The notes under the pieces are model-generated. The model had not been told where the DNA came from. It saw only the letters and a list, made by a program, of their open reading frames with translations, and searched no databases. DNA of 64,000 nt from positions 3,476 to 67,475 of IMG/VR virus record IMGVR_UViG_3300014204_000184, one strand, 5' to 3'. Below are positions 33,383 through 63,922 of this stretch, piece by piece. A program made the translations under genes and the position numbers. The DNA comes from a virus. Taxonomy: Duplodnaviria; Caudoviricetes. Within the stretch, counting starts at the first letter, position 1. Each line of letters starts with the position of its first letter.

Positions 33383-36300
33383 TTACAACAGCGCCCTTAT
33401 GGCATCCTTCACCATGTCCGGAGTGATTTCTTTGGTGCATTCGTACTGCACCACCGGCCGGCCTTCCCACTCTTTGCGCGCGCACCAGTCCCATCCTCGA
33501 TCGAAGGGGACGTTGGTGTCGTTGAAACACCCATGACAGACATTTGTGTTGATGACCCGGCTGTACGTCTGGAACTCCTCCCACGGTTCGGAGAAGCCGG
33601 AGATCAACACCACCGGAATTCCGAGGGACCAGGCCAGCCAGCTCGGCCCATGGCCCAACCCGATGTAGAAGGCGGCCCCGGACAGAACCGCGCAGGTATC
33701 CTCGATCTTGCGCTTGTTGAACTTCTTGACGTTCTTCAACGTCGTCGGCTCCTTGCTGATGGAAACGACCTCGTAGCCGAGGCTGATGCAGTAGTCCACG
33801 ATCTCCTGCCACGCCCCCGGGCGGTTCCAGAGCTTGGGCTGCATGGTGGAGAACTCGGACAGACACACGTACTTGCCGGCCGGCCGGGGGCCGTCAAACT
33901 TCTTCAGCCGTGCGCGCCGCGGGACATAATCGAGGCCCAGGATATCGGCGGCAACCTTCTGCAGCGGAGTCACACGCCAGTTCTCGACATTCCGGTCCGG
34001 ATCGTTGTCGAAGCAGCCGACCTCATAAGATGCGTAGAGATGATCGAGGCCGGTCCCGGGAGCCACGATTTCCAGCTCCGGATAATCGAGGATCTCCCTC
34101 CACCAGCACGAACAGATGACATGACACTCATGCTTCTTCTGGAACTCCAGGACGTAGGGGATCCAGGCCAGTGTATCGCCGAGGGCCTTCGACGCGATGC
34201 TGATCATCACCCGCTTGCCCTTCAGGTCCAGATGATGGCGGAAAATCTCCTTACCGTCCAGCTCGGCCCGGACGGTCCAGTCGCGGAAATACTTCTTTTT
34301 CGCTCGCGCCCACATCCCAGGCTTCTGTATCAGCTCGTACTCATCGGGATCGTCGGGAGTCCCAAAGACCACGCGGTATTGCCGGGGCGAGAGACCATTG
34401 ATCTTCAGGTATGGTCCGTCGACAAAGTGGATATCGAAGGTGTCGGCGGGCCATGTCTTCGGATCCCCCGACTGGAATCGATGATCGCCGACGATGTCCA
34501 TGTGGCAAATCTTGTCTTCGTGATCTTTCCAGTTTGGGTTATCGAGCTCGTAGATGTCCGCGAGCGCCATGATCCCGCCGGACATGAGATCGGGGCAACG
34601 GGTGCTGATGCAGACGGGCTTTTCCGCCATCGCCACCTTGCACAGAAACTCCTCGAGATCCACTTCGACATCGTAGGCGAGGAAGTGGACACGGTCCCAC
34701 GCGCCTTCGCAGAACCTGATGACGTCGCGCATGATGCTGGGCGAGTCCTTGGCGTATAGGTAGTGGTCGGCCTTATCGAAGATGGTCGGGGGGATCGCAT
34801 ACGGGGAGGCGATGAGGGCCTTGTAGGCCATGGCGTGGACCTGGGTGATGGTTTCCTGGAGGGTCACCAGCCTCTCGGCACTGTCCGGATTCCCCGTGAT
34901 CACGAAGATGCTCTTCTCTTTCTTGCGCAGTTTCGGATCCCCGCGGCCGGTGCGGTCGATCTCGTAGCCGGCGTGGAAGGCCGCGGCAACCAGTTCGGTA
35001 TCCTTGTCTCCGGGAGGTGTCACGTTGGCGGCCGGCGCCGCCTCTTTGGTCACCATGGCTTGCTTGGTAGGCAGGACGACCAGTTGTACTCGTTTCTCGG
35101 CGAAGTAGTCGTCTATGGCCTTCCTGGCCCCCTGGGTGGTCGGGAACCCGTAGTCATCGAAGACCATGATGCCGCCGACAGCCATCCGCGGCCAGATGTG
35201 CCGGCAGCAGTCCAAGGTGCTCTGGTAGAGATCGACGTCGATGTGGGCAAAGGCGATGAGTCCATCCGGTGCTTCATGGAACACGGCGGGGAACCAACCC
35301 TTGTGGTAATAGACGATGTCATCGTGGCCGATGAGTTTCCGTGCCTCCTCGACGGTGGCGGCGAACTCCCCCTTCCGGTGGTGATCAAGGGGACCAGGTT
35401 CCGGCAGGCCTTCGAAGGAGTCGAAGAGATCGAGAACGCGCCCGGAATCCGCACATACATTGGCCAGCATGGCGGCCGTATGGCCCCGATAGACCCCGCA
35501 CTCCCATACCTCACCAGGAACCTTCAATGCCTGGAGTAGGGAGGTGTAAAGGACTTTGCAGCGGTCCCGGTCTACCAGACCACCCATGGCCGCCGGCGCG
35601 AAGTGTTTCTCGAAGAGGTCCGGGTTCCCATCGTTGGGAAGATCGATTTTACAGGACCAATCCGGATTCACGATGCGAACGTCCTCAGCTACTCCGTGCT
35701 CCGGAAGGATGACATCCCCGGGCTGGGGGACGTAAAGATTCGGATCCTCCAAAGGTCGGAGCAGCTCCAAGGCTCTTTCTGCGGCCATGTCCCAGGAGAA
35801 GTTGGTGATGATGGGGACGGCGGCCGCCAATGCCGCTTGCCGGTAGTAGGGATAGTTGGCGGTGAGCTCGCGCAGCCACCAGCGATAGCTGGACCAGTTC
35901 GGCTCCCCCCACTCTCCCGGGCAGTCCGGTACCCCGTAGACGTTGAAGGGCTTGATCAATTTGTCCAGGGGGACGTGGCAGGCATCCCGGCAGAACTCTG
36001 TATTCCCGGACCAGTCGTGGCAGACCACAGGAATCCCACAGGCCATGCCCTCGATGATGGGCAACCCCCATCCCTCTCCCCGGGACACATTGAGCAGTAC
36101 GTGACCCTCTTGCAGGTAACGGACGTACTCCTCGAGGGGCGGATGGTGGACCACGGTGATGCGGGGGTCATCGAACCCGTAGGCCTTCAGGCGCTCTTCG
36201 GTCGTCGTGTACTGGTCGACGGGGAAGGCGTTGTCGGCAGAAATGAGCAGCTCGTGATCCGAGTAGGAAGGCGGGAAGGCCTCCATCCAGTTCTTGATCA

Positions 36301-36832
36301 TCTCCCGGGTGCACTTTCGATCCTCCCAGCGGCCGAAAATCAAGAATCGAAACCGCCTGGGATCGGCGTGACCCAGCACCGGGAAGGATCCTGGATGGAA
36401 GATGCCCGGATCGACGCCTTCCGGGACTACGCGCACGAAATCGGCATAGTCGATCGGAATGGACACGTCTGCTTCCTTCAACTGCTCGATCGTGCAATTT
36501 CGCTGCCACTGCGAAGGAACCCATAGCTGATCCAGGTGGCAGAGGTTGTCGATGAAGGACTGAGGGTACCTGGTAGACTCCCAGGCCACAAATCCTATCT
36601 TCTTCCCCCTGATGCCCCGGGATTGCTCCATGACGGCGGCGAATTCCTGGACTCCGACGAAAAAGAGATGGGTGCCTTCCGTCGGTACTCGAGCATCGCG
36701 GCCGAAGGTGTGCCGGATGACCTCAACCCCCTTGCGCTCCAGTGCGGCGGTAAAATTGGTCGCAAACTGCGCCCCCCCTCCCTGATACCCAAACGATCCG
36801 TGTGCGGTTATCTGCATATCTGCTCCTTTCAA
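33383..36832 (-). CDS. Multi-domain glycosylation enzyme (1149 aa): GT4 glycosyltransferase + TylF/MycF-type O-methyltransferase + Aah/TibC-like protein O-heptosyltransferase
   Basis: GT4: SRGEGWGLPIIEGMACGIPVV. TylF: WECGVYRG...FDSFEGLP...KGWF...HIDVDLYQS...GGIMVFDDY. TibC-like: DLKGKRV.ISIASKALGDTLAWIPY...LQKVAADILGL...GPSWLAW..G.PVVLISGF...CHGCFN...WC...EC. Confidence 0.85.
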   Translation of the reverse strand: MKGADMQITAHGSFGYQGGGAQFATNFTAALERKGVEVIRHTFGRDARVPTEGTHLFFVGVQEFAAVMEQSRGIRGKKIGFVAWESTRYPQSFIDNLCHLDQLWVPSQWQRNCTIEQLKEADVSIPIDYADFVRVVPEGVDPGIFHPGSFPVLGHADPRRFRFLIFGRWEDRKCTREMIKNWMEAFPPSYSDHELLISADNAFPVDQYTTTEERLKAYGFDDPRITVVHHPPLEEYVRYLQEGHVLLNVSRGEGWGLPIIEGMACGIPVVCHDWSGNTEFCRDACHVPLDKLIKPFNVYGVPDCPGEWGEPNWSSYRWWLRELTANYPYYRQAALAAAVPIITNFSWDMAAERALELLRPLEDPNLYVPQPGDVILPEHGVAEDVRIVNPDWSCKIDLPNDGNPDLFEKHFAPAAMGGLVDRDRCKVLYTSLLQALKVPGEVWECGVYRGHTAAMLANVCADSGRVLDLFDSFEGLPEPGPLDHHRKGEFAATVEEARKLIGHDDIVYYHKGWFPAVFHEAPDGLIAFAHIDVDLYQSTLDCCRHIWPRMAVGGIMVFDDYGFPTTQGARKAIDDYFAEKRVQLVVLPTKQAMVTKEAAPAANVTPPGDKDTELVAAAFHAGYEIDRTGRGDPKLRKKEKSIFVITGNPDSAERLVTLQETITQVHAMAYKALIASPYAIPPTIFDKADHYLYAKDSPSIMRDVIRFCEGAWDRVHFLAYDVEVDLEEFLCKVAMAEKPVCISTRCPDLMSGGIMALADIYELDNPNWKDHEDKICHMDIVGDHRFQSGDPKTWPADTFDIHFVDGPYLKINGLSPRQYRVVFGTPDDPDEYELIQKPGMWARAKKKYFRDWTVRAELDGKEIFRHHLDLKGKRVMISIASKALGDTLAWIPYVLEFQKKHECHVICSCWWREILDYPELEIVAPGTGLDHLYASYEVGCFDNDPDRNVENWRVTPLQKVAADILGLDYVPRRARLKKFDGPRPAGKYVCLSEFSTMQPKLWNRPGAWQEIVDYCISLGYEVVSISKEPTTLKNVKKFNKRKIEDTCAVLSGAAFYIGLGHGPSWLAWSLGIPVVLISGFSEPWEEFQTYSRVINTNVCHGCFNDTNVPFDRGWDWCARKEWEGRPVVQYECTKEITPDMVKDAIRALL

Positions 36833-40467: not shown

Positions 40468-41286
40468 GTGGCCAACCCACAACTCGAAAACGGATTCATT
40501 CCGATTGCGACCGAACTTTTCTCGGCAATCTGCCATTTCCGGTTTCCCGGGGAAGAGCGCCAGGTCTTCGACGCCATCATCCGGCAGACCTACGGCTGGA
40601 ACAAAAGGGAAGATCGGATCTCTCTTTCTCAATTTGTCGAGGCGACCGGGCTGGCTAAACCACACATCGTCCATGCCTTATCGGGGTTATTGCTGAAAAA
40701 GGCAATAATCGTTGCCGAAAAAGGCAACGACAAAGGTAAGTGGTATTCAATAAACAAGAATTACGAGGAGTGGATGCCGTTGCCGAAAAAGGCAACGTTG
40801 CCGAAAAAGGCAATGATTATTGCCGAAAAAGGCAACGATCTGTTGCCGAAAAAGGGTACCACAATAAACACTGTTATAGACACTACAACAGACAAAGACA
40901 TCTTTACGTCTGAACCCGAGGTTCCGACCCCTGATCAACCCCGGCCCGAACAGGCAAGGATGGAGTGTCCCCACCAGCAGATCGTCGCCGCCTACAACCG
41001 GATCCTACCTGAGCTGATCGCCGTGCAGATGTGGACGCCAGCCAGACAGTCCATCTTGAGGGCGAGGTGGAACGAGGCTACGGAGAGGCAAACGCTGGAA
41101 TGGTGGGAGGATTTCTTTGGCTATGTGAAGACATGCCCCTTTCTGATGGGAAAGATTTCGAATTTCAGGGCCGACCTCGAATGGCTTATCCGGCCCAAGA
41201 ACTTCCCCAAGGTATTGGAAGGGAAGTACGATGACCGTAAAAACCAGAAACACCGGGGGATCAAGGCATGGTTGGAGGAACAATGA
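40468..41286 (+). CDS. Lambda-O-like replication initiator
   Basis: MANPQLENGF..IA.EL...IIRQTYGWNK..DRIS.SQF (Phage_rep_O N-terminus). C-terminal ADLEWLIRP.NF.KVLEGKY. Confidence 0.88.
   Translation: MANPQLENGFIPIATELFSAICHFRFPGEERQVFDAIIRQTYGWNKREDRISLSQFVEATGLAKPHIVHALSGLLLKKAIIVAEKGNDKGKWYSINKNYEEWMPLPKKATLPKKAMIIAEKGNDLLPKKGTTINTVIDTTTDKDIFTSEPEVPTPDQPRPEQARMECPHQQIVAAYNRILPELIAVQMWTPARQSILRARWNEATERQTLEWWEDFFGYVKTCPFLMGKISNFRADLEWLIRPKNFPKVLEGKYDDRKNQKHRGIKAWLEEQ
40690..40858 (+). repeat. Six copies of the 16-bp palindromic iteron TTGCCGAAAAAGGCAA (probable replication origin)
   Basis: Copies start at 40690 (one mismatch), 40712, 40780, 40798, 40820 and 40843 (degenerate end). They lie inside the O-like gene, as in lambda ori. 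Confidence 0.8.
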
Positions 41287-49023: not shown

Positions 49024-49553
49024 CAATCGATTCCGTCAAGGTGCAATATGGTCGGCGCTTGGTCCATGTCGCGGTGAGCTGGGACGAGGACGGCATCAAC
49101 TCGGTTGAAGTCTTAGGACAGGAGGGGCGGGCTACCGGCAAAGCCGCCCCTCAAATCATGTCGAAAAACAGGAAATCACTCGAAGAGCCGTTGAACGAAG
49201 TCGGCCCGGAGCCGGGCGAAATCCTTATAGACGCTTATGATCCACGCCGAGCCTATAGCGGAGCCTATACACCGCCGGCCCCCGTTCCCAACGATGGGAA
49301 ACTGAAAACCCTATTCTTTGATACAGGAGTACGGCCGGAGTACGTGACCAACCCACCTTTTGTGCTCAGGGCGGGCCAGGTGATCAAAAACAAGACAATG
49401 CAAATCCCCTTTGATTGTGACGCACCCGACAACGCGGAAATACTGTTCTTTTGTGACAACCCGTCGTTGGCTGAAAGTAAATGGTGTTTGGTGCGGGAGA
49501 TATTCAACACAGTTATGCTGTCTAAATACGTCTATTTGAGGGTGAAAAAATGA
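49020..49553 (+). CDS. Hypothetical early protein
   Basis: ORF with SD, coupled. Confidence 0.55.
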   Translation: MTIDSVKVQYGRRLVHVAVSWDEDGINSVEVLGQEGRATGKAAPQIMSKNRKSLEEPLNEVGPEPGEILIDAYDPRRAYSGAYTPPAPVPNDGKLKTLFFDTGVRPEYVTNPPFVLRAGQVIKNKTMQIPFDCDAPDNAEILFFCDNPSLAESKWCLVREIFNTVMLSKYVYLRVKK

Positions 49554-51526
49554 ACGATGACAAAGACCTTGAAGGCACCGCCACCTATGACCCCGAGGAC
49601 AACAAAATCCGCTTCTATCCTTTCGCTCGCCTGGATGCTGATCTTTATCAGCGAGTAAGGGCGGCCGGGTTTATATGGGCACCACAGCAAAAGCTGTTCG
49701 TCGCCCCGATGTGGACGCCGGAACGCGAAGACCTGATGATCGAGCTATGCGGCGAGGTCGGGGACGAAGACACAAGCCTTGTGGATCGAGCCGAGGAACG
49801 GGCTGAACGATTTGACGAGTACAGCGAACGACGCGCCGAGGAGGCCGACCGCGCGCACGCTGCCGTGGATGGGATTGCCCAACGGTTTGAGGGCGGCCAA
49901 CCCATCCTTGTCGGGCACCACAGCGAGAAGCGAGCCAGGAAGGACGCCGAGCGCATTCAAAACGGGATGCGCCACGCAATCAAAATGTGGGAGACGTCGA
50001 AATATTGGGAAGCCAGGGCGAAGGGTGCGCTTAGGGCTGCTAAGTACAAGGAACTCCCAGCCGTGAGAGCGCGCAGGATCAAAACTCTTGAAGCTGATCA
50101 AAGACGGATTATCGCCAGCTATACGCCCCGTGATAAAGCCGTCATCCTTCAGCAGAAATGGGACGCCGACAAAGACGCGCCCTCTATCCCGCACGTCTAT
50201 TGTGGGCAAGGCTCCCGGGGCGGGTCATGGGTGCCGGTTGAAGACCTGGAGACGATCAAAGCCAGATCCGCGCGATGGTTGCAGCACATAGCGAACCGAA
50301 TCACCTATGAAAGGGCCATGCTCCAGGAGCAAGGCGGAATCATCACAGATCGGGCAGAGGTAGAATTGGGTGGCCGGGTTCTGGTTCGGGGCGAATGGAT
50401 TCTAATTGTCAAGATCAACCGGAAAGATGGCAAGATTTGCAGCCTGGGCACCAATCGCCGCTATGTTTCAACCGTGAGCATTGAGGATGTCAAGGACTAC
50501 CGGCCCCCCGAACCCGGGGACGCGGAGAAGGTCAAGAAAGCAATGGCCCTGCCCCCTATGTGCAACTATCCGGGCGAAAACACCGTCAACATGACAAAGG
50601 CCGATTATGCAGCCGTTTATCACGACAGCAAAGGAGGCACGGTATTAAAGGCCACGGAAACGGCAGGACGCCACAGGGTCCGCACCGTTCAAGCCTTTGT
50701 CGCTCGAAAATTCGGATATCCCGCCGACCGTGACCGTTTTGGCATCATATCCGTATTCTTGACAGACGAGAAACGCAAAGACCCGCCACCACCTGAACAG
50801 GAAGCGCCGCCCAAGCTGGCCCCGCCCGAACGGGACCAGAACGCCCCCCCGCGCCATGTTTATGTAGAACCGGAGCCGACCAAATTCGACGTGCTCAAAG
50901 ATGCCTTGAAGGAAGGGGTCAAAATAGTCGTTGCACCGAATCTTTTTGTCACGCCGGATGATATTGCTGACCAAATGGTGGCCCGTGCTGATATCGAGCC
51001 GGACATGGACGTGCTAGAGCCCCAGGCCGGGACCGGCGCCCTTGTGCGGGCGATCCTGAGAGCAGAACCCACAAGCAAAGTGATGGCCGTCGAAATCAAC
51101 GGGGATCTTTGCCAAATGTTAGTTGACCTTCCTTGTCGGGTGATCTGTAAAGACTTTTTTACCTTTGACATGACCGGAAAATTCGACCGGATCATCATGA
51201 ATCCGCCCTTTGATCATGGGATCGATATCAAGCACATCGAACACGCCTTGACCATGCTGAAGCCTGGCGGCCGTCTGGTTACATTATGCGCGGCCGGCCC
51301 GAAGCAACGCGCAGCCTTTATTGACCGCGCTGAAGAATGGGAGGATCTTCCACCCAATAGCTTTAAGGAGGCCGGAACCGGGGTCAATGTGGCTATGGTG
51401 ACCATCGACGCACCCGAGCCCTTGACACCCAAGCAAGAGGACGACCACGCCGCCATAGTCGAACAGAACGAGAAAAGCGGGAACTTCTCTTTGACCGCGC
51501 CACCGACGCAACCAAGTCTTTTCTAA
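49550..51526 (+). CDS. DUF3560-domain protein fused to a class I SAM-dependent (amino-type, NPPF) DNA methyltransferase
   Basis: TATY.PEDNK.R.Y...GF.WAP.Q..F.APMWTP.RED; GQPILVGHHSEKRARKDA; LEPQAGTGAL; FDRIIMNPPF. Confidence 0.85.
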   Translation: MNDDKDLEGTATYDPEDNKIRFYPFARLDADLYQRVRAAGFIWAPQQKLFVAPMWTPEREDLMIELCGEVGDEDTSLVDRAEERAERFDEYSERRAEEADRAHAAVDGIAQRFEGGQPILVGHHSEKRARKDAERIQNGMRHAIKMWETSKYWEARAKGALRAAKYKELPAVRARRIKTLEADQRRIIASYTPRDKAVILQQKWDADKDAPSIPHVYCGQGSRGGSWVPVEDLETIKARSARWLQHIANRITYERAMLQEQGGIITDRAEVELGGRVLVRGEWILIVKINRKDGKICSLGTNRRYVSTVSIEDVKDYRPPEPGDAEKVKKAMALPPMCNYPGENTVNMTKADYAAVYHDSKGGTVLKATETAGRHRVRTVQAFVARKFGYPADRDRFGIISVFLTDEKRKDPPPPEQEAPPKLAPPERDQNAPPRHVYVEPEPTKFDVLKDALKEGVKIVVAPNLFVTPDDIADQMVARADIEPDMDVLEPQAGTGALVRAILRAEPTSKVMAVEINGDLCQMLVDLPCRVICKDFFTFDMTGKFDRIIMNPPFDHGIDIKHIEHALTMLKPGGRLVTLCAAGPKQRAAFIDRAEEWEDLPPNSFKEAGTGVNVAMVTIDAPEPLTPKQEDDHAAIVEQNEKSGNFSLTAPPTQPSLF

Positions 51527-57174: not shown

Positions 57175-58056
57175 GTGACCGCCTACTACAACGAGATAGA
57201 GCCTTACGCGGCCCAATGGCTACGGAATCTCATCAAGGCCGGACTGATCGCGCCAGGAATAGTTGACGACAGGAGCATTGAAGATGTTCGACCAGATGAC
57301 CTTATGGGATTCACCCAATGCCATTTCTTCGTCGGTATCGGCGTGTGGTCTTATGCCCTGCGCGCTGCGGGATGGCCCGACGATAGACCGGTCTGGACAG
57401 GATCATGCCCCTGTCAACCTTTCTCCGCGGCAGGCAAAGGAAAAGGGTTTACTGACGAGCGGCACTTATGGCCGGCGTGGTTCCATCTCATTGAGCAGCG
57501 CCGACCTTCAACGATTTTTGGCGAGCAGGTTGGAAGTGGTGACGGCCTGTCTTGGCTCGACCTTGTTCAAGCTGACCTGGAAGGATTGGGTTACGCCTGC
57601 GGGGCGACCGTTACGCCTGCTTCGGGCTACGGGGCGCCGCACCAAAGACACCGGATTTACTTCGTGGCCGACCACCCGAGCATCGGACGGGGCGAATCCT
57701 CCCATGGGGAAGGACCGGACGGATTCACTACCCAGCGAAGTCAAGCTGTTACCCTGGGCGACACCTGCGGCGAGGGATTACCGCTGTGCAAACCTGAAAA
57801 CATACCAGGAACGGGGAGGGGGAACAAAAGGGGAGCAGCTTTGCAACCAGGTCCAACAAATGGATTTTGGCATGACGCCCTCTGGCTCCCCTGCCGAGAC
57901 GGAAAAGCGCGGCCAACTAAACCCGGCATTTTCCCGCTGGCTCATGGGGCTCCCGGAAGAGTGGGACGCCTTCGCGCCTACGGAAACTGCATCGTCGCTC
58001 CGCAAGCGATCGAGTTTATCCGCGCCGCAACAGCATGGAGGATTTTGACGGAATGA
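57175..58056 (+). CDS. dcm: DNA (cytosine-5) methyltransferase, large (alpha) polypeptide
   Basis: FFVGIG (I), SCPCQPFS (IV), GEQV (VI), HQRHRIYFV (VIII), RLRAYGNCIV (X). Confidence 0.88.
   Translation: MTAYYNEIEPYAAQWLRNLIKAGLIAPGIVDDRSIEDVRPDDLMGFTQCHFFVGIGVWSYALRAAGWPDDRPVWTGSCPCQPFSAAGKGKGFTDERHLWPAWFHLIEQRRPSTIFGEQVGSGDGLSWLDLVQADLEGLGYACGATVTPASGYGAPHQRHRIYFVADHPSIGRGESSHGEGPDGFTTQRSQAVTLGDTCGEGLPLCKPENIPGTGRGNKRGAALQPGPTNGFWHDALWLPCRDGKARPTKPGIFPLAHGAPGRVGRLRAYGNCIVAPQAIEFIRAATAWRILTE
57263..58048 (+). CDS. Alternative-frame beta polypeptide of the C5-MTase (M.EcoHK31I-type arrangement)
   Basis: A 261-codon open frame lies entirely inside the dcm gene. It carries WPT/WATP repeats and the motif-IX-like LNPAFSRWLMGLPEEW, which the main frame lacks. 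Confidence 0.65.
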   Translation: MTTGALKMFDQMTLWDSPNAISSSVSACGLMPCALRDGPTIDRSGQDHAPVNLSPRQAKEKGLLTSGTYGRRGSISLSSADLQRFLASRLEVVTACLGSTLFKLTWKDWVTPAGRPLRLLRATGRRTKDTGFTSWPTTRASDGANPPMGKDRTDSLPSEVKLLPWATPAARDYRCANLKTYQERGGGTKGEQLCNQVQQMDFGMTPSGSPAETEKRGQLNPAFSRWLMGLPEEWDAFAPTETASSLRKRSSLSAPQQHGGF

Positions 58057-58439: not shown

Positions 58440-58997
58440 ATGGACGGATGGTACTATCTGCACACCAATGGGGAGTTGATTTTCAAGCGGTGGTTTGAAC
58501 CGGAGGCCGACAGCGACTTCGTCAAAAAGGTGTGGCCTATCGACGTCACGAATCGGGCAAACGCCTGGACGATCCTCATCGAGGGACTGGCGATGGGGGC
58601 ACGGGTCGAGAGAGTGGCGGAACTGGCCGAAACGTGGGGCTGCACTACCCACGACCTTCCCATGTATCTGGCCCACGTCACAACCCCGACCCAGCAGCAG
58701 AAAGACGGGCTGGAATTGTTTTTGAATAAGATCGCCCATGTCGATTATGACACCTGGCTGGACTGGCTGGCGACAACCCCCCGGGGACAGGAGCCCATAT
58801 GGGCCACGATGCCGAGGGCCGATCTCTGTAAGAGCTGCACGAAAGTGTTTCCGGCCTGTGATTGCCCCACCGGGAATGATCCAGGGATCGTCTTCGATCC
58901 CAATAGCAAGGGCAAGGATTCGATTGCCGAATGTTCGGCGTATGTGAAGAAAGGAGCGGGGGATGGAGACGGAAAAAGCACGGCAGCGGAGGCTTAG
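58440..58997 (+). CDS. Hypothetical protein (GWYYLHTNG.LI.K...) with C-terminal Cys cluster
   Basis: SD AAGGAG. Recurrent phage motif. Confidence 0.65.
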   Translation: MDGWYYLHTNGELIFKRWFEPEADSDFVKKVWPIDVTNRANAWTILIEGLAMGARVERVAELAETWGCTTHDLPMYLAHVTTPTQQQKDGLELFLNKIAHVDYDTWLDWLATTPRGQEPIWATMPRADLCKSCTKVFPACDCPTGNDPGIVFDPNSKGKDSIAECSAYVKKGAGDGDGKSTAAEA

Positions 58998-59673
58998 GGA
59001 GGGGTTCTTCCGGGACTTCATCCAGCCGGATAAGAAGGGCATTGATGTAGGCGCAGGCGGTGACCCCATCACCGAAAACTGCATCCAATGGGAAAGAACG
59101 CTGGGCGACATGGATGCCATGAGATTGCAGGGGATTCTCACGGGAGAGATGGACTGGATTTATTCGAGCCATTGCCTTGAGGATCTGGACAACCCCTGGG
59201 CGGCCGTCAGGGAGTGGTGGCGGGTTCTGAAGCCGGGTGGGTTCATGTGCATCATGGTGCCGCACCGGGATCTCTTCGAGTGCCGCAAGACCCTGCCCAG
59301 CGCCGGCAACGCCAATCACCGGACGTTCTGGCTCCCGGATCGCAACGAGCCTCCCGTCACGCTGGGGCTGGTTCCCTTGGTGTCCGGGGTCTGCCAGGAC
59401 TCCGAACTTATGTACTGCAAGACCTGTGACGAGGGATACCGGGTAGAGTTCAGGCCCATGCCCAGCGCCCCCCATATCATCCAGGTGATTGCGAACGGGG
59501 AGTTCAGCATCGAGGCAATCTGGCGGAAACGTATCCCAATGATGTACGTGGAAGATATGATCCTGCCCGAACAGTTGGGGATGACAAACGACGAGGCCCA
59601 AAGGCGCGAGGATTTTGGACCAAATGGGGATGCGACCACCCCCGGATTCCTAAAAGGAAAGGAGAAACAATGA
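58963..59673 (+). CDS. Class I SAM methyltransferase (Methyltransf_11-like)
   Basis: GIDVGAGGD, IYSSHCLEDL, WWRVLKPGG. Confidence 0.8.
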   Translation: METEKARQRRLREGFFRDFIQPDKKGIDVGAGGDPITENCIQWERTLGDMDAMRLQGILTGEMDWIYSSHCLEDLDNPWAAVREWWRVLKPGGFMCIMVPHRDLFECRKTLPSAGNANHRTFWLPDRNEPPVTLGLVPLVSGVCQDSELMYCKTCDEGYRVEFRPMPSAPHIIQVIANGEFSIEAIWRKRIPMMYVEDMILPEQLGMTNDEAQRREDFGPNGDATTPGFLKGKEKQ

Positions 59674-60311
59674 GCGAAGAAGAGATCAGAACCGCGATCC
59701 AGAAGCGGGAGTATCGGATCAGGTTCACGGAACCCATGCTGGGGACCGTGGCCATGGACCCGGAAATCTACAAGACCTACATCGAGGCCAAGAAGGAGAA
59801 ACGCAAGGATTCCGCATACGCGCCTGGCGCTGATGACGAAGCTGCGACCGTTGAAAAGCGGGAGGAAAAGGGCTGGACCGGATTCCATCGCCTCAACCCC
59901 GACGATCAGGACAGTCCAATGTTCGTCTACGACTATTTCGTCAAGGGATTCCTGAAGGGGTCCGGGAACGTCCTCAAGGACATCGTGAAGGTGAAGCAGT
60001 TGAAGTCGAAGCTGGACGACTTCGTCTTCGTCTTTCCCCGGCGCATCCTGCTGGGAACCGGAAAGCCGGATGGCGTCCTGGAGAGGCCACTGCGGGCCAT
60101 GACTATGCAGGGGCCGAGGGTCACGCTGGCCCGGTCGGATTATGTCAAAGAGGGGACCGAGATCACCTTCCAGATCCACCTTTTCCCGCACCCGGCGCTC
60201 TCCTGGAAGCTCATCGACGCCCTCATGGCCCATGGCCAGTACATGGGGATGGGGCAGTTTCGGAACGGATCTTACGGCAGATTCGAGGTGGTCGACGTGA
60301 AGGAGTGCTGA
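59670..60311 (+). CDS. Solitary RAMP/Cas7-like protein (213 aa)
   Basis: N-terminal beta1 RIRFTEPMLG, central VKGFLK, R-rich ERPLRA, C-terminal G-rich loop GMGQFRNGSYGRFEV. These are the hallmarks of the RAMP (Cas7/Csm3-like) fold. Confidence 0.7.
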   Translation: MSEEEIRTAIQKREYRIRFTEPMLGTVAMDPEIYKTYIEAKKEKRKDSAYAPGADDEAATVEKREEKGWTGFHRLNPDDQDSPMFVYDYFVKGFLKGSGNVLKDIVKVKQLKSKLDDFVFVFPRRILLGTGKPDGVLERPLRAMTMQGPRVTLARSDYVKEGTEITFQIHLFPHPALSWKLIDALMAHGQYMGMGQFRNGSYGRFEVVDVKEC

Positions 60312-60655
60312 GGAGAAGATCAGCGAGGGCTTGGTATTGATTTGAAACGGAGATGAATGGCGAAGAGCCGCTTTGGAAGAGTCGCGCATAGAACCGCCCC
60401 GAAGAGCATGGGCGACGAAATGAAAAGCACGACATCGTGTTGGAAGTGAAGGGCAGTGCGTTGGCAAGGGATTTGGATGGAGTAGCCCAGGAAACCGAGG
60501 AGAACTGCGTTGGCGCTGGGATGAATGGCTTCGAGCCGCGCCGAAACGGCAGAGATGTGCTTCGAATAGGATTTGAACCAGCAGCGCGCCGTTTTGGAAC
60601 CGCTTTCAGCCGCAAGGGATTGGAACCCAATACATCTGTATCGATTTGGAAAGGA
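60312..60655 (+). ncRNA. Degenerate pentamer-periodic array (G[A/C]NNN) with GCAAGGG/GAAACGG punctuation; candidate guide-RNA array for the RAMP protein
   Basis: Parses as GCTTG GTATT GATTT GAAAC ... GCGAA GAGCC GCTTT ... GCATA GAACC GCCCC GAAGA GCATG ... GATTT GGATG GAGTA GCCCA ... GCTTC GAGCC GCGCC GAAAC. No supported CDS until the SD plus TTG at 60663. Confidence 0.65.
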
Positions 60656-60662
60656 GAACGCA

Positions 60663-61121
60663 TTGAAAAGCAAAGACGAACAGGAGGCCCTCCGGCTACA
60701 AGCCGAGAAACAATTGGAACCAGGGCAGCGGGCCGTCGATTATCTCCAGGAGGGCGTGTTCACGATCCTCCGGTCGCTGGGGGTGGACACGAACCCGCCG
60801 GCAGACGTGAAGCAGCAGCAGCTAAACCTGGGCATCCACGTCTTCGATACCGACGAGATCCAGAAGATGCTGGAGGCCAAATCCATGGCCGGGGATACGA
60901 GCTGGGACTGGCTTAAGGGGTTCTTCCTTCGCCATGACGGGTTCTTCATCCAGCGGGACACGGGAACCGTCGACACGCGGACCGGCATGGAGATCCTCCA
61001 GCCGATCGCGTTTGTCGGCGACGTCGGAATCAAGGACGGCCATGTGGTCGCCCATATCCATGACTTCCGGACCAACAAGGTATTCATGGTCAAGGGGATT
61101 CGGATGCCGGAGGGGAAATGA
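60663..61121 (+). CDS. Hypothetical protein (152 aa)
   Basis: SD AAGGAG before TTG 60663. In frame with track ORF 60573..61121. Confidence 0.65.
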   Translation: MKSKDEQEALRLQAEKQLEPGQRAVDYLQEGVFTILRSLGVDTNPPADVKQQQLNLGIHVFDTDEIQKMLEAKSMAGDTSWDWLKGFFLRHDGFFIQRDTGTVDTRTGMEILQPIAFVGDVGIKDGHVVAHIHDFRTNKVFMVKGIRMPEGK

Positions 61122-61444
61122 TCGAATGGCGTAGAGAGAACCGACGGAGGAAGGGGGAGGACTGGGGATCGAGGGCCACCGTCGCCCTCCTGAAGCTGAG
61201 CATCGTGGCCGTACTGGTGTGGACCGGCTACCTGTATGGCCAGACGGCCGGATGGGTAGAGGCCCGAGACTATTTCACGAACATTTTCGCGGACCGGGTT
61301 GAGAAGGTCGAGAAAGACCTGGTAAACTTCAAGATGTGGCACTACGGCCTGAAAAACTTCTTCTTCTACGACAAGGGGAAGCTCTGCTTTGTGACCAAGG
61401 CCAAGGATCTGGAGAACCCAAAGAAATGGAGGCGAACACGATGA
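61118..61444 (+). CDS. Single-pass membrane protein
   Basis: TM segment TVALLKLSIVAVLVWTGYLYG. Confidence 0.6.
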   Translation: MIEWRRENRRRKGEDWGSRATVALLKLSIVAVLVWTGYLYGQTAGWVEARDYFTNIFADRVEKVEKDLVNFKMWHYGLKNFFFYDKGKLCFVTKAKDLENPKKWRRTR

Positions 61445-61461
61445 GGACCAAAGGAGCACGT

Positions 61462-62424
61462 ATGTACTCAGGGAACCGCCACAAAGAACGCCTGAAGAAG
61501 GCCCGGGTGAAACGAAGGGTCACGCTGTACGAGTCCCCCAACATCATCGAATGCCGAGACGCCAACGACGTCCTGGGGTATGCGCCGGGGTGCCGCCGTC
61601 GATACTGGTTCCGGAAACAGGGGGAGCCGGTCCTGGCGCCGATCAATGCCGACTATGCATTGGAGTTCCAGCAGGACTGGATCGCCCATCTGTATCAGCA
61701 GAAATACAAGACCCTGCTCCACCGGCCCACCACGATCACCTTCAGCCGGCGGCTGCCCTACATGGCCATCCTGCCCGACCGGATACTGGCATCACAGGGG
61801 CGGACGGAGAAGGAGGTCTTGTGGACTCCGGTGATCATCGAGGTCATGACGGAGCCGCAGTTCCGGGTCTTCGAACACAACGGAATCAGCGACCGGCAAA
61901 GTCATATTCTCCAGTTCTGCCTGGCGGTCAAGAAAGGAGTAGAGAAGGCCGTCATGATTGGTGGCTGCATGGACCCCCTGGAGATAAAGGCGGTCGTAGT
62001 AGCCCGGCAGCCGGACGTGGTCGCGGAAATCGAAGCGGCCGTAGAACGAATGTTCGACAGCATCCGACAGCGCCGGGAGCCTGGCGGGACAACCGGGGAG
62101 TGTGAGTGGTGCCCATACTTCCGGAGGTGCTGTAGCTTCAAGCCGATAGGAGTGGAACGGCCCGACCTCGAACTTCTGACGGAAGAATGGATGCGGGCAC
62201 GGCTGCGGGAGGGGGAGGCGGCCGAGGGGATGAGGGCCATCGAGGATCAGATCCGGCACAAGATGCGGGAGATCGAGGAGGCCCACTGTGATGCCGGCAA
62301 CCTCACCTATTCAACCGTGCTGAAATGGCGCGTAGACACCGAACGCTTACTGGCCGAGAAGCCGGACATAGTCCGACTCTATCGGAAAAACATGCCCGAG
62401 AGGGTGCTGCGGATCAGCAGATAG
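61462..62424 (+). CDS. YqaJ/lambda-exonuclease-like protein with apparently degenerate active site
   Basis: ILPDRIL...IIEVMT (ExK changed to ExM)...HILQFC; CEWCPY. SD before 61462. Confidence 0.5.
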   Translation: MYSGNRHKERLKKARVKRRVTLYESPNIIECRDANDVLGYAPGCRRRYWFRKQGEPVLAPINADYALEFQQDWIAHLYQQKYKTLLHRPTTITFSRRLPYMAILPDRILASQGRTEKEVLWTPVIIEVMTEPQFRVFEHNGISDRQSHILQFCLAVKKGVEKAVMIGGCMDPLEIKAVVVARQPDVVAEIEAAVERMFDSIRQRREPGGTTGECEWCPYFRRCCSFKPIGVERPDLELLTEEWMRARLREGEAAEGMRAIEDQIRHKMREIEEAHCDAGNLTYSTVLKWRVDTERLLAEKPDIVRLYRKNMPERVLRISR

Positions 62425-62432
62425 GAGGATTC

Positions 62433-63143
62433 ATGTACGAGCGACAGAGGTATCTTTTGGATGGGAAGATCGAAGCAATCGGTCTGACCAAGCATCGGCA
62501 CCTGTTCTACCTCGCAGGTGGGGCGGTCACGTCGGTCTTTTCGGGCCGGAAGATCAACGATCTGGACTTGTTTTTCCGCACTGAGGAAGATTTAAAGGCC
62601 CTTCAGAAAATCATCGAGGGGGAGGGTAAAGAACGCATCTATGCGGAGTTTGTCACCAAGAACGCCGTCAGCTACCGGATCAAAAAGGAACTGGTCCAAC
62701 TGGTCCGCTGCACCTTCGCCCAGCCGAGGGACATGCTCGGCACGTTCGACTTCACCATCTGCATGGCCTCCTATAATCCGAGGCATCATGCGGAAAACGA
62801 CTTCATCTTCGATCCCCTCTTCATGCCCGATCTGGCCGCCCGGGTGCTTCGGTACAATCCCGGTCCCTACCCAATCGCCAGTCTGTGGCGGATGAAGAAG
62901 TTCCTCCTGCGCGGGTTCAACCTGCCGGCCGTCGAATCGATCAAGCTGGCCCTGGCCATCAACAATCTCAATCTGGACACCTATGAGGCACTGAAAAATC
63001 AGTTGGAAGGGATCGACACATCGTTTTTGAAGGACGTGACGGACCAGTTGATGAACAAGGGCGCCGAGACATATGATTTCCATCGCGCCATCGACTTCAT
63101 GAACGAGATCCTGTCCCGGATCGAGGAAGGAGGCCCGGAATGA
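62433..63143 (+). CDS. Pol-beta-superfamily nucleotidyltransferase (CCA/poly(A) polymerase head-like)
   Basis: LAGGAVTS...NDLDLFF...QL...FDFTIC. Confidence 0.75.
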   Translation: MYERQRYLLDGKIEAIGLTKHRHLFYLAGGAVTSVFSGRKINDLDLFFRTEEDLKALQKIIEGEGKERIYAEFVTKNAVSYRIKKELVQLVRCTFAQPRDMLGTFDFTICMASYNPRHHAENDFIFDPLFMPDLAARVLRYNPGPYPIASLWRMKKFLLRGFNLPAVESIKLALAINNLNLDTYEALKNQLEGIDTSFLKDVTDQLMNKGAETYDFHRAIDFMNEILSRIEEGGPE

Positions 63144-63922
63144 TATTATTCAAATGTCCCGAAGAAGGATGCCTCTGGACCCACGAAGTCAACGATGCCC
63201 ACGTCGAACACTTTGGCGCCCCGCGATGTCCCCAGCACGGAACCGTAATGACCCGGTCCGATTGGGAGATGCCGTCCCCGTTGCGGCTGGATCTGGCCTG
63301 CGGGGAACGGAAGGAGCCCGGGTTTGTTGGCGTCGACCAGATGCTTTACCCTGGCGTCGATTTGGTCTGGAACCTGGACCACTACCCCTACCCCCTCCCC
63401 GACAAGTCAGTCGATGAGGTCCGGTGCTTCCACTTCATCGAGCACGTCGAGAACCTCGTGGCCTTCATGGAAGAGCTTTATCGGATCATGAAGCCCGGGG
63501 CCACCGGCGTCCTGGCTGCACCGTTCTGGAGTCACGTAAACACCTGGCGCGACCCCACCCATCGCCGCGGTATCGCCGAACAGACGCTGATGTTCTTCAA
63601 CCGGGACTACCGGGAGCGGAACAAGAAGGGCTGTTATGGGATCAAGGCGGACTTCGAGGTCGGATACTCCATCAACCTGGACCCCAGCATCAACTTTCAT
63701 CCGCCGGCTCAACTGGAGTTCATGAAGCGGTTCTGCGTCAACGTCTTCTTCGATATCACCTTTACGATCCGGAAGGTGATCAAGGAATCCGATTTCCCGA
63801 AGACGTGGGAGTGTAAGGTCTGTGGGTCCACCTACACGGACCGGGAGAAGGGATCGGGAACGAAGTGCTGGCAGGGACATGACCTCACCAAAATCGAAGG
63901 AGGGACCGATGGACAAGTTTAA
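63140..63922 (+). CDS. Methyltransf_11-like SAM methyltransferase flanked by two Zn ribbons
   Basis: LDLACG, FHFIEHV, YRIMKPG, W.DPTH.R; CPEEGC...CPQH; CKVC...CWQGH. Confidence 0.8.
   Translation: MILFKCPEEGCLWTHEVNDAHVEHFGAPRCPQHGTVMTRSDWEMPSPLRLDLACGERKEPGFVGVDQMLYPGVDLVWNLDHYPYPLPDKSVDEVRCFHFIEHVENLVAFMEELYRIMKPGATGVLAAPFWSHVNTWRDPTHRRGIAEQTLMFFNRDYRERNKKGCYGIKADFEVGYSINLDPSINFHPPAQLEFMKRFCVNVFFDITFTIRKVIKESDFPKTWECKVCGSTYTDREKGSGTKCWQGHDLTKIEGGTDGQV

What the first reader, a model, noticed from the sequence alone, without database searches (positions are those of the whole stretch)
59670..60655. Solitary RAMP/Cas7-like protein followed by a 5-nt-periodic non-coding array: candidate phage RNA-guided system
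Seen: a 213-aa protein with RAMP hallmarks (RIRFTEPMLG beta1; G-loop GMGQFRNGSYGRF). Its stop codon is followed by ~340 nt in which G recurs every fifth base over long runs, about 60 units of consensus G[A/C]NNN. Longer conserved anchors punctuate the array: GCGAGGG 60323, GAAACGG 60344 and 60543, GCAAGGG 60464 and 60612, GAAACCG 60491, GAAAGG 60649. Codon periodicity (3) cannot produce a 5-nt period. There are no CRISPR repeats or other cas genes nearby. Known: Cas7 RAMPs polymerise along guide RNA with a fixed nucleotide register. From memory, phage RAMP systems with pentameric-repeat RNAs (VIPR, GGY/NN units) have been reported recently, but the unit consensus here differs. Inference: the protein coats RNAs cut from this array, and the variable positions encode a gapped target, for example in competing phages or host defence genes.
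Basis: partly seen in the sequence, partly recalled or inferred. Interest (0 to 1): 0.92.

Follow-up and report, generated by a model that had tools for sequence, protein, structure and literature searches.

The report
Phage VIPR system, single-G guide array
A 67-kb tailed phage from landfill and groundwater metagenomes carries a small Cas7-like (Vipr) gene followed by a 350-base array of five-base guide-RNA units; this is a real example of the VIPR RNA-guided silencing systems described in 2026 preprints, not a new kind of system.

Summary
The 213-aa protein folds as a Cas7-type RAMP: Foldseek E 4e-7, VIA Z 12.4 to Csm3, Z 10.9 to 6ifn_E. Its family profile aligns over its full length with the family of the experimentally characterised SUSP1 Vipr (hhalign 96.5%, E 8e-10).

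The 351 nt after its stop codon (60312-60662) has a G lag-5 autocorrelation of 0.34-0.36, against a shuffle sd of 0.05-0.06 and a maximum of 0.20 in 5000 shuffles. That is the highest value in the 64-kb window, and there is no codon periodicity.

All 32 homologue loci fetched from IMG/VR carry a same-strand pentamer array next to the gene. No other neighbouring gene is conserved. The arrays are built of 5n+1 blocks: usually four to six pentamers in phase (four to seven in this window), each block opening with GG. This matches the published 'staggered' VIPR arrays with YNNNG/NNNNG units.

Two local peculiarities are that the unit is G[A/C]NNN where relatives have GYNNN, and that there is no accessory (vap) gene.

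Expression, processing and targets could not be tested. No RNA runs hold this DNA, and the target searches were blank.

This scan has already noted VIPR systems on other DNA: 335 notes, 67 of them the staggered type.

Verdict: new member of a known kind, of modest interest.

The parts
59660..59664 (+). Ribosome-binding site (AGGAG) of the vipr gene, 5 nt before the ATG
   Evidence: Read directly from the sequence.
59670..60311 (+). vipr gene: a 213-aa stand-alone RAMP (Cas7-like) protein. Beta-1 spans residues 11-19, the thumb hairpin 135-159, and the G-loop (GMGQFRNGSYGRF) 191-203.
   Evidence: ORF. AF2 model with pLDDT 80.6. Foldseek top hits are Cmr4, Csm3 and type VII Cas7, E 4e-7. VIA Z is 12.4 to 6xn3_F and 10.9 to 6ifn_E. 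hhalign against the SUSP1 Vipr family gives 96.5% probability, E 8e-10, over 179 columns. The family has 842 word-indexed homologues and 1427 representatives at 50% identity with E <= 0.001, with no Pfam, PHROG, NCBIfam or PADLOC match.
60312..60662 (+). Putative vrRNA array: about 66 units of G[A/C]NNN on the gene's strand. It starts directly after the stop codon and ends at the next gene's start codon.
   Evidence: Lag-5 G autocorrelation 0.34-0.36 with no lag-3 signal. HMM segmentation. No Rfam match at E <= 1. The RNA folds less well than its shuffles, z +1.6. The array is identical in four independent assemblies. The antisense ORFs across it have no family match.
60349..60374 (+). Guide block of 26 nt: a leading G plus 5 pentamers, opening with GGAGAT
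   Evidence: Unit table. The 5n+1 block form is shared with the relatives.
60375..60410 (+). Guide block of 36 nt: a leading G plus 7 pentamers, opening with GGAAGA. This is the longest clean block.
60411..60441 (+). Guide block of 31 nt: a leading G plus 6 pentamers, opening with GGCGAC
60442..60462 (+). Guide block of 21 nt: a leading G plus 4 pentamers, opening with GGAAGT
   Evidence: re-parsed by eye from the HMM's 4-mer/5-mer split.
60463..60517 (+). Degenerate middle stretch: very short or irregular blocks with a weaker G phase
   Evidence: One search shows units of 4, 5 and 9 nt here. One search shows mixed phases.
60518..60568 (+). Six in-phase pentamers (60518-60547), then a 21-nt block opening with GGCAGA (60548-60568)
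   Evidence: The 20-nt stretch at 60520-60539 repeats 60352-60371 at 85% identity.
60596..60647 (+). Two blocks: 60596-60616 (21 nt, opening GGAACC) and 60617-60647 (31 nt, opening GGATTG)
   Evidence: The second block is re-parsed by eye from the HMM's units.
60663..61121 (+). Downstream boundary gene (152 aa, TTG start, GGAG RBS at 60652-60655). It is not shown to belong to the system.
   Evidence: Gene callers on two identical contigs start it here. It has no family match and only one relative in 5.8 billion proteins. It is absent from all 32 homologue loci. The AF2 single-sequence model has pLDDT 62.7 and was not usable.

Best explanation
This is a VIPR (Viral Interference Programmable Repeat) system of the stand-alone, 'staggered array' kind, carried by a nearly complete 67-kb tailed phage.

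Shown here:
- The gene 59670-60311 encodes a Vipr-family RAMP.
- The 351 nt that follow on the same strand are a non-coding array of about 66 five-base units, each with one fixed G.
- The units are grouped in blocks of 5n+1 nt, and each block opens with GG.
- Gene plus array is the only module conserved across the relatives.

Inferred by homology with the SUSP1 and P. fulva systems:
- The array is transcribed with the gene and cut into short vrRNAs, here of about 4-7 units each.
- Vipr protomers polymerise along each RNA, one per unit. They bury the fixed G and the base after it, and present the variable bases.
- The filament binds double-stranded DNA of a competing mobile element or host gene through non-contiguous pairing and silences its transcription.

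The single fixed G fits the protein. Of the two SUSP1 residues that hydrogen-bond the first G of GGY, His17 lies in a 5-residue segment absent from this family, and Asp177 is Gln196. The pocket for the second G is kept: the thumb Arg, the G-loop aromatic residue Phe197 and Arg198.
For: Fold. The AF2 model (pLDDT 80.6) matches Cas7-type RAMPs only. Foldseek gives probability 1.00 and E 4e-7 to 1e-5. VIA gives Z 12.4, 158 residues aligned, to Csm3, and Z 10.9 to 6ifn_E. 6ifn_E is the Cas7 query that the VIPR authors used with a cut-off of Z 6.

Homology. Family profile against family profile of SUSP1 Vipr gives hhalign 96.5%, E 8e-10, 179 columns end to end. A profile search of PDB sequences lists type VII Cas7 (E 8e-4), Csm4 and 'SUSP1 Vipr protein' 36pp_D (E 0.098). 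All of these match at the G-loop.

Array statistics.

Comparative evidence.
- In 32 of 32 IMG/VR loci (28 non-redundant), the HMM finds a same-strand array beside the gene. It lies downstream in 29 and upstream in 3. Only about ten stray segments were found in roughly 240 kb of flanks.
- Their unit is G-Y-N-N-N, with G 91% and Y 82%.
- A 'GGYNNN' hexamer recurs after mostly 4-5 pentamers. The window has the same grammar.
- No other gene is conserved around them.

Non-coding and unstructured. There is no lag-3 signal, no Rfam family, and the RNA folds less well than its shuffles.

Phage context. Terminase, portal/adaptor and tail genes are present. The genome is an IMG/VR virus record, 98% complete.

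Published description. The locus fits the preprints: minimal loci, mostly viral, alternative NNNGG/YNNNG/NNNNG repeats and staggered arrays, and non-canonical units including TGH/NN.
Against: - There is no evidence of transcription, processing or protein binding for this locus.
- No target was found.
- The unit lacks the canonical GGY. Its second position is A as often as C, whereas the characterised Y pocket excludes purines.
- The pairing rule for single-G units has not been published in the text available here.
- Identity to the characterised Vipr is only about 17%, so the residue-level mapping (His17, Asp177) rests on a remote alignment.
- About 55 nt in the middle of the array (60463-60517) are irregular, so part of the array may be decayed.
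- No accessory vap gene is present.
- The VIPR type (I-VII) could not be assigned, because the paper's tables are not held.
Confidence: 0.88

Rival explanations
1. It is the same family but uses a different code. In this single-G, vap-less class the guides would read three bases per unit, or use another skip length, or target RNA. Very short guides of 4-7 units would then act differently from the SUSP1 filament of 11-12 protomers.
For: Three unit positions are variable here and in the relatives, not two. Blocks are short. The G1-binding residues of SUSP1 Vipr are absent or changed. Two earlier notes of this scan suggested that all three free bases are read.
Against: Stop codons are only weakly depleted among the NNN triplets of 1735 units: 82 observed against 103.5 expected in sense, and 68 against 68.7 in antisense. 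The NNN concatenate of the longest block has no exact match in IMG/VR or in 185,579 species genomes. None of ten rules gave more matches than shuffled guides in the local test set. In SUSP1 a footprint of six units is already functional, so short guides need no new mechanism.
Confidence: 0.2
2. It is a decaying or inactive relic. The gene would be intact but the array partly degenerate and no longer producing working guides.
For: The stretch 60463-60517 is irregular. The second unit position is unusually relaxed compared with the relatives. No target was found.
Against: The protein keeps every invariant residue of its family. Ten blocks keep the GG-plus-pentamers grammar. The locus is identical in landfill and groundwater assemblies from different studies. 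A relative of 54% identity (P0143) has the same A/C/T-tolerant unit: A 30%, C 50%, T 20%.
Confidence: 0.08
3. It is a DNA-level element, such as protein-binding sites, a curvature signal or a replication or packaging signal, and not an RNA. Alternatively it is a coding region.
For: Long ORFs cross the region on the minus strand: 146 aa and 117 aa. Periodic DNA elements do exist in phages.
Against: The periodicity is strand-specific (G on the gene's strand) and is tied to the RAMP gene in 32 of 32 loci. A 5-nt period with +1 slips is incompatible with codons, and the lag-3 value is -0.07. The antisense ORFs have no family match. High-GC DNA gives long chance ORFs.
Confidence: 0.02

Closest known systems
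VIPR systems with 'staggered' vrRNA arrays and alternative YNNNG / NNNNG repeats (bioRxiv 10.64898/2026.04.26.720920, methods and fig. S17-S18 legends)
   Same: A lone Vipr RAMP gene sits next to a long non-coding array of pentamers with one fixed G. The array is made of abutting short units offset by one base. The locus is phage-borne, with no CRISPR array and no cas genes.
   Different: The base after the G is A or C here (35% and 37%), not a pyrimidine. No vap gene is present. The type could not be assigned because the paper's tables are not held. Only figure legends, not the figures, could be read, so equating my 5n+1 blocks with their staggering is an inference.
Type II VIPR of Escherichia phage SUSP1 (Vipr ALH47069.1, vap1, four vrRNAs; PDB 36pp)
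   Same: The proteins are homologous over their full length at the profile level. They share the G-loop motif G-x-G-[D/Q]-[W/F]-R...G-R-F and a thumb hairpin. Each locus is a gene followed by a same-strand array.
   Different: SUSP1 has GGY/NN units in phase for 9-16 repeats, each vrRNA ending in a conserved structured tail of about 40 nt, and a vap1 gene between vipr and the array. Here the units have a single G, the blocks are 4-7 units long without tails, and there is no vap. Identity is about 17%. The residues that contact G1 are missing or changed.
Non-canonical VIPR-like arrays found by entropy periodicity (GAC/NN, CAC/NN, WGT/NN, TGH/NN; bioRxiv 10.64898/2026.10.21.760802)
   Same: These are period-5 arrays whose fixed part departs from GGY, found next to a Vipr-like fold. 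TGH/NN (G followed by A, C or T) resembles the unit here. WGT/NN resembles the unit of this protein's relatives.
   Different: Those clusters are described as about 10 repeats per array. Whether this family is among them could not be checked.
Class 1 CRISPR backbone subunits (Csm3/Cmr4 of type III, Cas7 of type VII)
   Same: These are the best structural matches, Z 11-12.4 over about 150-160 residues. They share the RRM core, G-loop and thumb, and they polymerise along a guide RNA in a fixed register.
   Different: They use a 6-nt register on a contiguous spacer flanked by CRISPR repeats, and they work with Cas5, Cas10/Cas8, Cas11, Cas6 and the adaptation genes. None of these is present here.

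Membership tests
VIPR system | Vipr protein: a single-RRM RAMP with a glycine-rich loop and a thumb | tested here: met
   The AF2 model has beta-1 at 11-19, helix-1 at 89-101, a thumb hairpin at 135-159 and a G-loop at 191-203. Foldseek and VIA hits are exclusively Cas7-type RAMPs, with Z up to 12.4 and 6ifn_E at Z 10.9.
VIPR system | Sequence homology to an experimentally characterised Vipr | tested here: met
   hhalign of A2 (91 sequences) against A3 (38 sequences of the SUSP1 Vipr family) gives 96.5% probability, E 8e-10, over 179 columns covering both proteins. Against the single SUSP1 sequence it gives 82%, E 1e-5.
VIPR system | Adjacent non-coding tandem pentanucleotide array with fixed and variable positions | tested here: met
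   for the window. for 32 of 32 homologue loci.
VIPR system | Canonical GGY/NN unit (as in type II) | tested here: not met
   The unit is G[C 37% / A 35%]NNN. GG occurs only at block starts. The paper allows NNNGG, YNNNG and NNNNG alternatives, so this excludes the canonical form, not the class.
VIPR system | Minimal locus without a CRISPR array or cas genes | tested here: met
   No tandem repeat of CRISPR type in the window. No cas family among the six neighbouring proteins scanned against PADLOC, apart from an insignificant Cas4-like score (E 0.027) for a RecE-like nuclease. NCBIfam gave nothing for the four proteins scanned.
VIPR system | Accessory vap gene next to vipr | tested here: not met
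   No neighbouring gene is shared between the window and the 32 loci, or among the loci. The downstream 152-aa gene is an ORFan. One relative (L020) has an HNH gene between vipr and the array. The paper notes stand-alone genes as well.
VIPR system | Carried by a virus or provirus (typical, not obligatory) | tested here: met
   Terminase, portal/adaptor and tail genes. The genome is an IMG/VR virus record of 67,475 bp, 98% complete.
VIPR system | vrRNAs are expressed, processed and bound by Vipr | not testable with these tools
   This needs sRNA-seq and a pull-down. The held sequencing runs cannot address it (see Tried and rejected).
VIPR system | Variable bases specify a gapped DNA target (1-nt skip) in a competing element | tested here: inconclusive
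   The local test of ten reading rules showed no excess over shuffled guides in about 0.6 Mb. Exact searches for a contiguous reading were blank. The databases and rules tried are too narrow to decide.
VIPR type II (SUSP1-like) | Each vrRNA ends in a conserved structured 3' tail | tested here: inconclusive
   No long invariant spacer lies between blocks, and the blocks abut directly. No Rfam hit, hammerhead included. The whole array folds less well than its shuffles. The only internal repeats are 10-20 nt long at 75-100% identity.
Class 1 CRISPR-Cas effector (Cas7) | CRISPR repeat-spacer array, partner Cas subunits and a 6-nt register | tested here: not met
   No CRISPR array. No cas families. 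The register is 5 nt.

The most novel reading that the evidence does not exclude
The single-G, vap-less, staggered class to which this locus belongs may use a guide code that differs from the published one (two bases read, one skipped). For example, it may read three bases per unit, or act through guides of only 4-7 units. This phage's Vipr may also have a relaxed pocket that accepts A at the position where characterised Viprs exclude purines. Either would widen the known programmable grammar of VIPR.
Probability: 0.2. Interest if true: 0.55.

Novelty: new member of a known kind. Interest (0 to 1): 0.3.

Why it matters
VIPR systems are a newly described relative of CRISPR in which a Cas7-like protein and a pentamer-coded RNA read DNA non-contiguously.

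This locus adds a clean, high-GC environmental example of the least characterised form: a single fixed G, staggered short guides and no accessory gene.

With its 1427 family representatives, it shows that this form is very common in uncultured phages. It also gives a concrete protein/RNA pair, 213 aa plus 351 nt, for testing how the code works when the first G and the pyrimidine rule are lost.

It does not change what is known about the class as a whole.

Tried and rejected
RNA evidence. No RNA holder is listed for this DNA. The four DNA runs laid on it are contigs and show no variant in the array. The four assemblies carrying the identical protein have 100% identical arrays. Natural variation therefore could not be used to tell fixed from variable positions.

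Target search, contiguous reading. The 21-base concatenate of the three variable bases of block 60375-60410 has no exact match in IMG/VR or in the species genome collection.

Target search, local test. All in-phase guide windows of 29 arrays were tried under ten reading rules against the 28 loci plus the window. None gave more matches than shuffled guides. The only excess, at period 5, is arrays matching arrays. I did not scan collections with the published 2-read, 1-skip rule, because 10-14 specified bases would give hundreds of chance hits.

'NNN = codon' idea. Stop triplets are only 20% under-represented in sense and not at all in antisense.

Leu-to-Met in the G-loop (G-M-G, residue 194) as the cause of A tolerance. 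This is not supported. Of three other G-M-G proteins whose arrays could be parsed, one has A 30% and two are C-rich with A 4-10%. A fourth, in L043, has a GG-rich array that the HMM could not parse.

vap candidate. The 152-aa downstream protein has no family, one relative, no Atlas hit and an unusable single-sequence model.

Fourier power at period 5. It is not significant over the whole region because of the phase slips. Autocorrelation and the phase-tracking HMM are the right tests.

Other negatives. Tandem Repeats Finder does not see the array. The promoter and terminator scans found nothing informative. The paper's supplementary tables are not held, so the VIPR type was not assigned.
Full report
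**What is there**

The ORF 59670-60311 (+) encodes 213 aa and has a good ribosome-binding site. The next gene on the strand starts at TTG 60663, as called on two identical contigs. That leaves 351 nt, 60312-60662, between them.

In this stretch G recurs at a spacing of five. Autocorrelation is 0.34 at lag 5, 0.17 at lag 10, 0.10 at lag 15 and -0.07 at lag 3. Shuffles give 0.00 +/- 0.05 with a maximum of 0.20 in 5000. Of all 350-nt windows across the 64 kb, the five highest values overlap this region.

Plain Fourier power at period 5 is unremarkable, because the phase advances by one base every few units. A phase-tracking HMM run on 59001-62000 marks a single region, 60329-60653. It holds 64 units: 51 pentamers and 8 hexamers. 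Composition is G 90% at position 1, C 37% / A 35% at position 2, and mixed bases at positions 3-5. The three other segments flagged in the whole window are weak (z 1.6-2.7, against 6.6 for the array) and lie inside genes.

The anchors are the block junctions.

**The protein**

No Pfam, PHROG, NCBIfam or PADLOC family matches, but the family is large.
- 842 word-indexed homologues.
- 1427 representatives at 50% identity with E <= 0.001.
- Nearly all are unnamed metagenome proteins of 185-215 aa with a strongly conserved C-terminal G-L-G-Q-[FW]-R-N-G-x-Y-G-R-F.

An AF2 model built on 30 sequences (pLDDT 80.6) shows an RRM-like core, a long beta-hairpin at 135-159 (the thumb) and an unstructured glycine-rich loop before the last strand. 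Foldseek returns only Cas7-type RAMPs at probability 1.00: Cmr4, Csm3, type VII Cas7 and Cas7-11. VIA-align gives Z 12.4 (rmsd 4.1 A, 158 aligned) to L. lactis Csm3 and Z 10.9 to 6ifn_E. The latter is the very chain the VIPR authors used as query, with a threshold of Z 6.

**Link to VIPR**

Two preprints describe Viral Interference Programmable Repeat systems: 10.64898/2026.04.26.720920 and .720927. A Vipr RAMP oligomerises, one protomer per pentamer, along vrRNAs made of GGY/NN repeats. It buries GGY and presents NN. The filament then reads double-stranded DNA while skipping every third base. The loci are minimal, mostly phage-borne and aimed at competing mobile elements.

I located the characterised SUSP1 Vipr (KT454805, 28474-29061, minus strand). 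Its vap1 gene and GGY/NN arrays are visible in the record. I then built a profile of its family.

Profile against profile, the window's family aligns with it end to end: hhalign 96.5%, E 8e-10, 179 columns. A profile search of PDB sequences also lists 'SUSP1 Vipr protein' 36pp_D among Cas7 and Csm4 hits at the G-loop. The protein is therefore a remote but genuine Vipr homologue.

**Comparative test**

A degenerate-pattern scan of IMG/VR fetched 32 loci (28 non-redundant) encoding relatives of 33-57% identity.

- In every one the HMM finds a pentamer-G array on the gene's strand beside the gene. It is downstream in 29 and upstream in 3, and some loci have arrays on both sides.
- Stray segments elsewhere number about ten in roughly 240 kb, so this association is not chance.
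- Nothing else is conserved. None of the window's neighbours occurs in any locus, and all-against-all clustering of 1235 ORFs yields only the vipr gene and its antisense shadows.
- Gene plus array is the module, and this clade has no conserved vap. One relative, L020, has an HNH endonuclease gene wedged between gene and array.

**Array grammar**

Across the relatives the unit is G (91%), Y (82%: T 49%, C 33%), N, N, N. About 15% of units are hexamers, typically G-G-Y-A-N-N. They recur after mostly 4-5 pentamers. In-phase runs are most often 5-6 units long. The arrays are therefore concatenated 5n+1 blocks, each opening with GG.

The window follows this rule: 60312 (G+3 units), 60328 (G+4), 60349 (G+5), 60375 (G+7), 60411 (G+6), 60442 (G+4), then an irregular 55 nt, then 60518-60647 with four more clean blocks.

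[quoted passage not shown] It also matches the paper's alternative YNNNG/NNNNG repeats.

A later preprint lists non-canonical units such as WGT/NN and TGH/NN next to Vipr-like folds. The relatives here look like the former and the window like the latter.

The array RNA is predicted to be less structured than its shuffles (z +1.6) and matches no Rfam family, hammerhead included. That suits a protein-coated guide.

**Why one G?**

In SUSP1 the first G of GGY is held by His17 and Asp177. The second G lies between the thumb Arg138 and Trp178. The pyrimidine sits in a pocket made by helix-1 (E71, M72) and the G-loop (R179, C173, residue 175).

In both alignments His17 falls in a 5-residue segment that this family lacks, and Asp177 corresponds to the nearly invariant Gln196. 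Trp178 and Arg179 correspond to Phe197 (W in many relatives) and Arg198. So the G that survives in these arrays is most simply the second G, followed by the Y position. This is inference from a remote alignment.

The window's peculiarity is A at the Y position in a third of units. It is shared by one relative of 54% identity (L040: A 30%, C 50%, T 20%). I could not tie it to a residue. The Leu-to-Met change at residue 194 does not track it.

**What could not be shown**

No RNA run holds this DNA. The phage is identical in landfill and groundwater assemblies, so there is neither expression evidence nor natural variation.

Target prediction failed.
- A contiguous reading of the longest block has no exact match in IMG/VR or in 185,579 species genomes.
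- Ten reading rules gave no excess over shuffled guides in the small local set.
- Stop triplets are only weakly avoided among the variable triplets, which speaks against the simple idea that each unit spells a codon.

The mechanism is thus carried over from SUSP1 and P. fulva by homology. The exact code for single-G units remains open.

**Context and verdict**

The genome is an IMG/VR virus record of 67,475 bp, 98% complete. It has terminase, portal/adaptor and tail genes. The VIPR module sits among DNA methyltransferases, a RecE-like nuclease and a Gad2-family protein.

This scan has already met it many times on other DNA: 335 notes, 67 of them of the staggered YNNNG type.

I rate it a new member of a known kind, interest 0.3. 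The relaxed unit and the unknown code of this sub-class are the only open points.

Noticed in passing
window 62433-63143 (+): A 236-aa protein carries Pfam PF26128 (Gad2) on the identical contigs. It matches PHROGs of unknown function and, weakly, nucleotidyltransferase and AbiEii models. It may be an anti-Gabija counter-defence gene, about 1.8 kb downstream of the end of the VIPR array.
   Followed up: partly
window 57175-58053, 58963-59670, 63140-63919, 49550-51523, 33383-36829: The phage has an unusually high load of methyltransferase genes: a C5 DNA methylase, two class-I SAM methyltransferases flanking the VIPR module, a 658-aa DNA methyltransferase, and a 1148-aa glycosyltransferase-methyltransferase fusion between terminase and portal.
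   Followed up: partly
window 61441-62421 (+): A 327-aa RecE-like PD-(D/E)XK exonuclease (phrog_434, E 6e-12) gives a weak, insignificant Cas4-like score in PADLOC (E 0.027). It is not a cas gene.
   Followed up: partly
window 40778-40855: A tandem repeat of about 18-22 nt (unit TTGCCGAAAAAGGCAACGATT, 3.1-3.6 copies, 85-86% matches). Each unit is a small hairpin, which looks like iterons or operators.
   Followed up: no
loci L001-L032, Vipr residue aligned to window F90 (SUSP1 M72): In the relatives, the helix-1 residue at the pyrimidine pocket tracks the array's preferred base after G. It is V, Q or A (S in L042) where C dominates: L011, L021, L023, L025, L029, L031. It is M or L where T dominates. 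F gives mixed results. There are few independent lineages, so this is only a lead for a specificity determinant.
   Followed up: partly
L020 4552-5136: A 194-aa HNH endonuclease gene (PF01844, E 7e-8) overlaps the vipr stop codon and separates it from its array. It could be a vap-like nuclease or a homing endonuclease. In this locus the vipr frame opens only at residue ~64 of the family, so the gene may be damaged.
   Followed up: partly
L014 7643-8135; L007 3434-3867; L009 3835-3958; L023 3878-3951: Some relatives carry a second pentamer array, either upstream of vipr or about 3 kb downstream (98 units in L014). In L011, L021, L023 and L029 the array is periodic on both strands, because the unit is G-C-N-N-N.
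   Followed up: no
window 60096-60130, runs X1-X3: In the same landfill and groundwater runs, other short contigs match only the conserved ERPLRAMT-coding segment and then diverge. Several different Vipr-bearing phages therefore coexist in these samples.
   Followed up: no
L043 3209-3453: A relative with a G-M-G G-loop (P0174) is followed by a very G-rich 245-nt spacer with GG-type pentamers such as GGCAN. My single-G HMM did not parse it.
   Followed up: no
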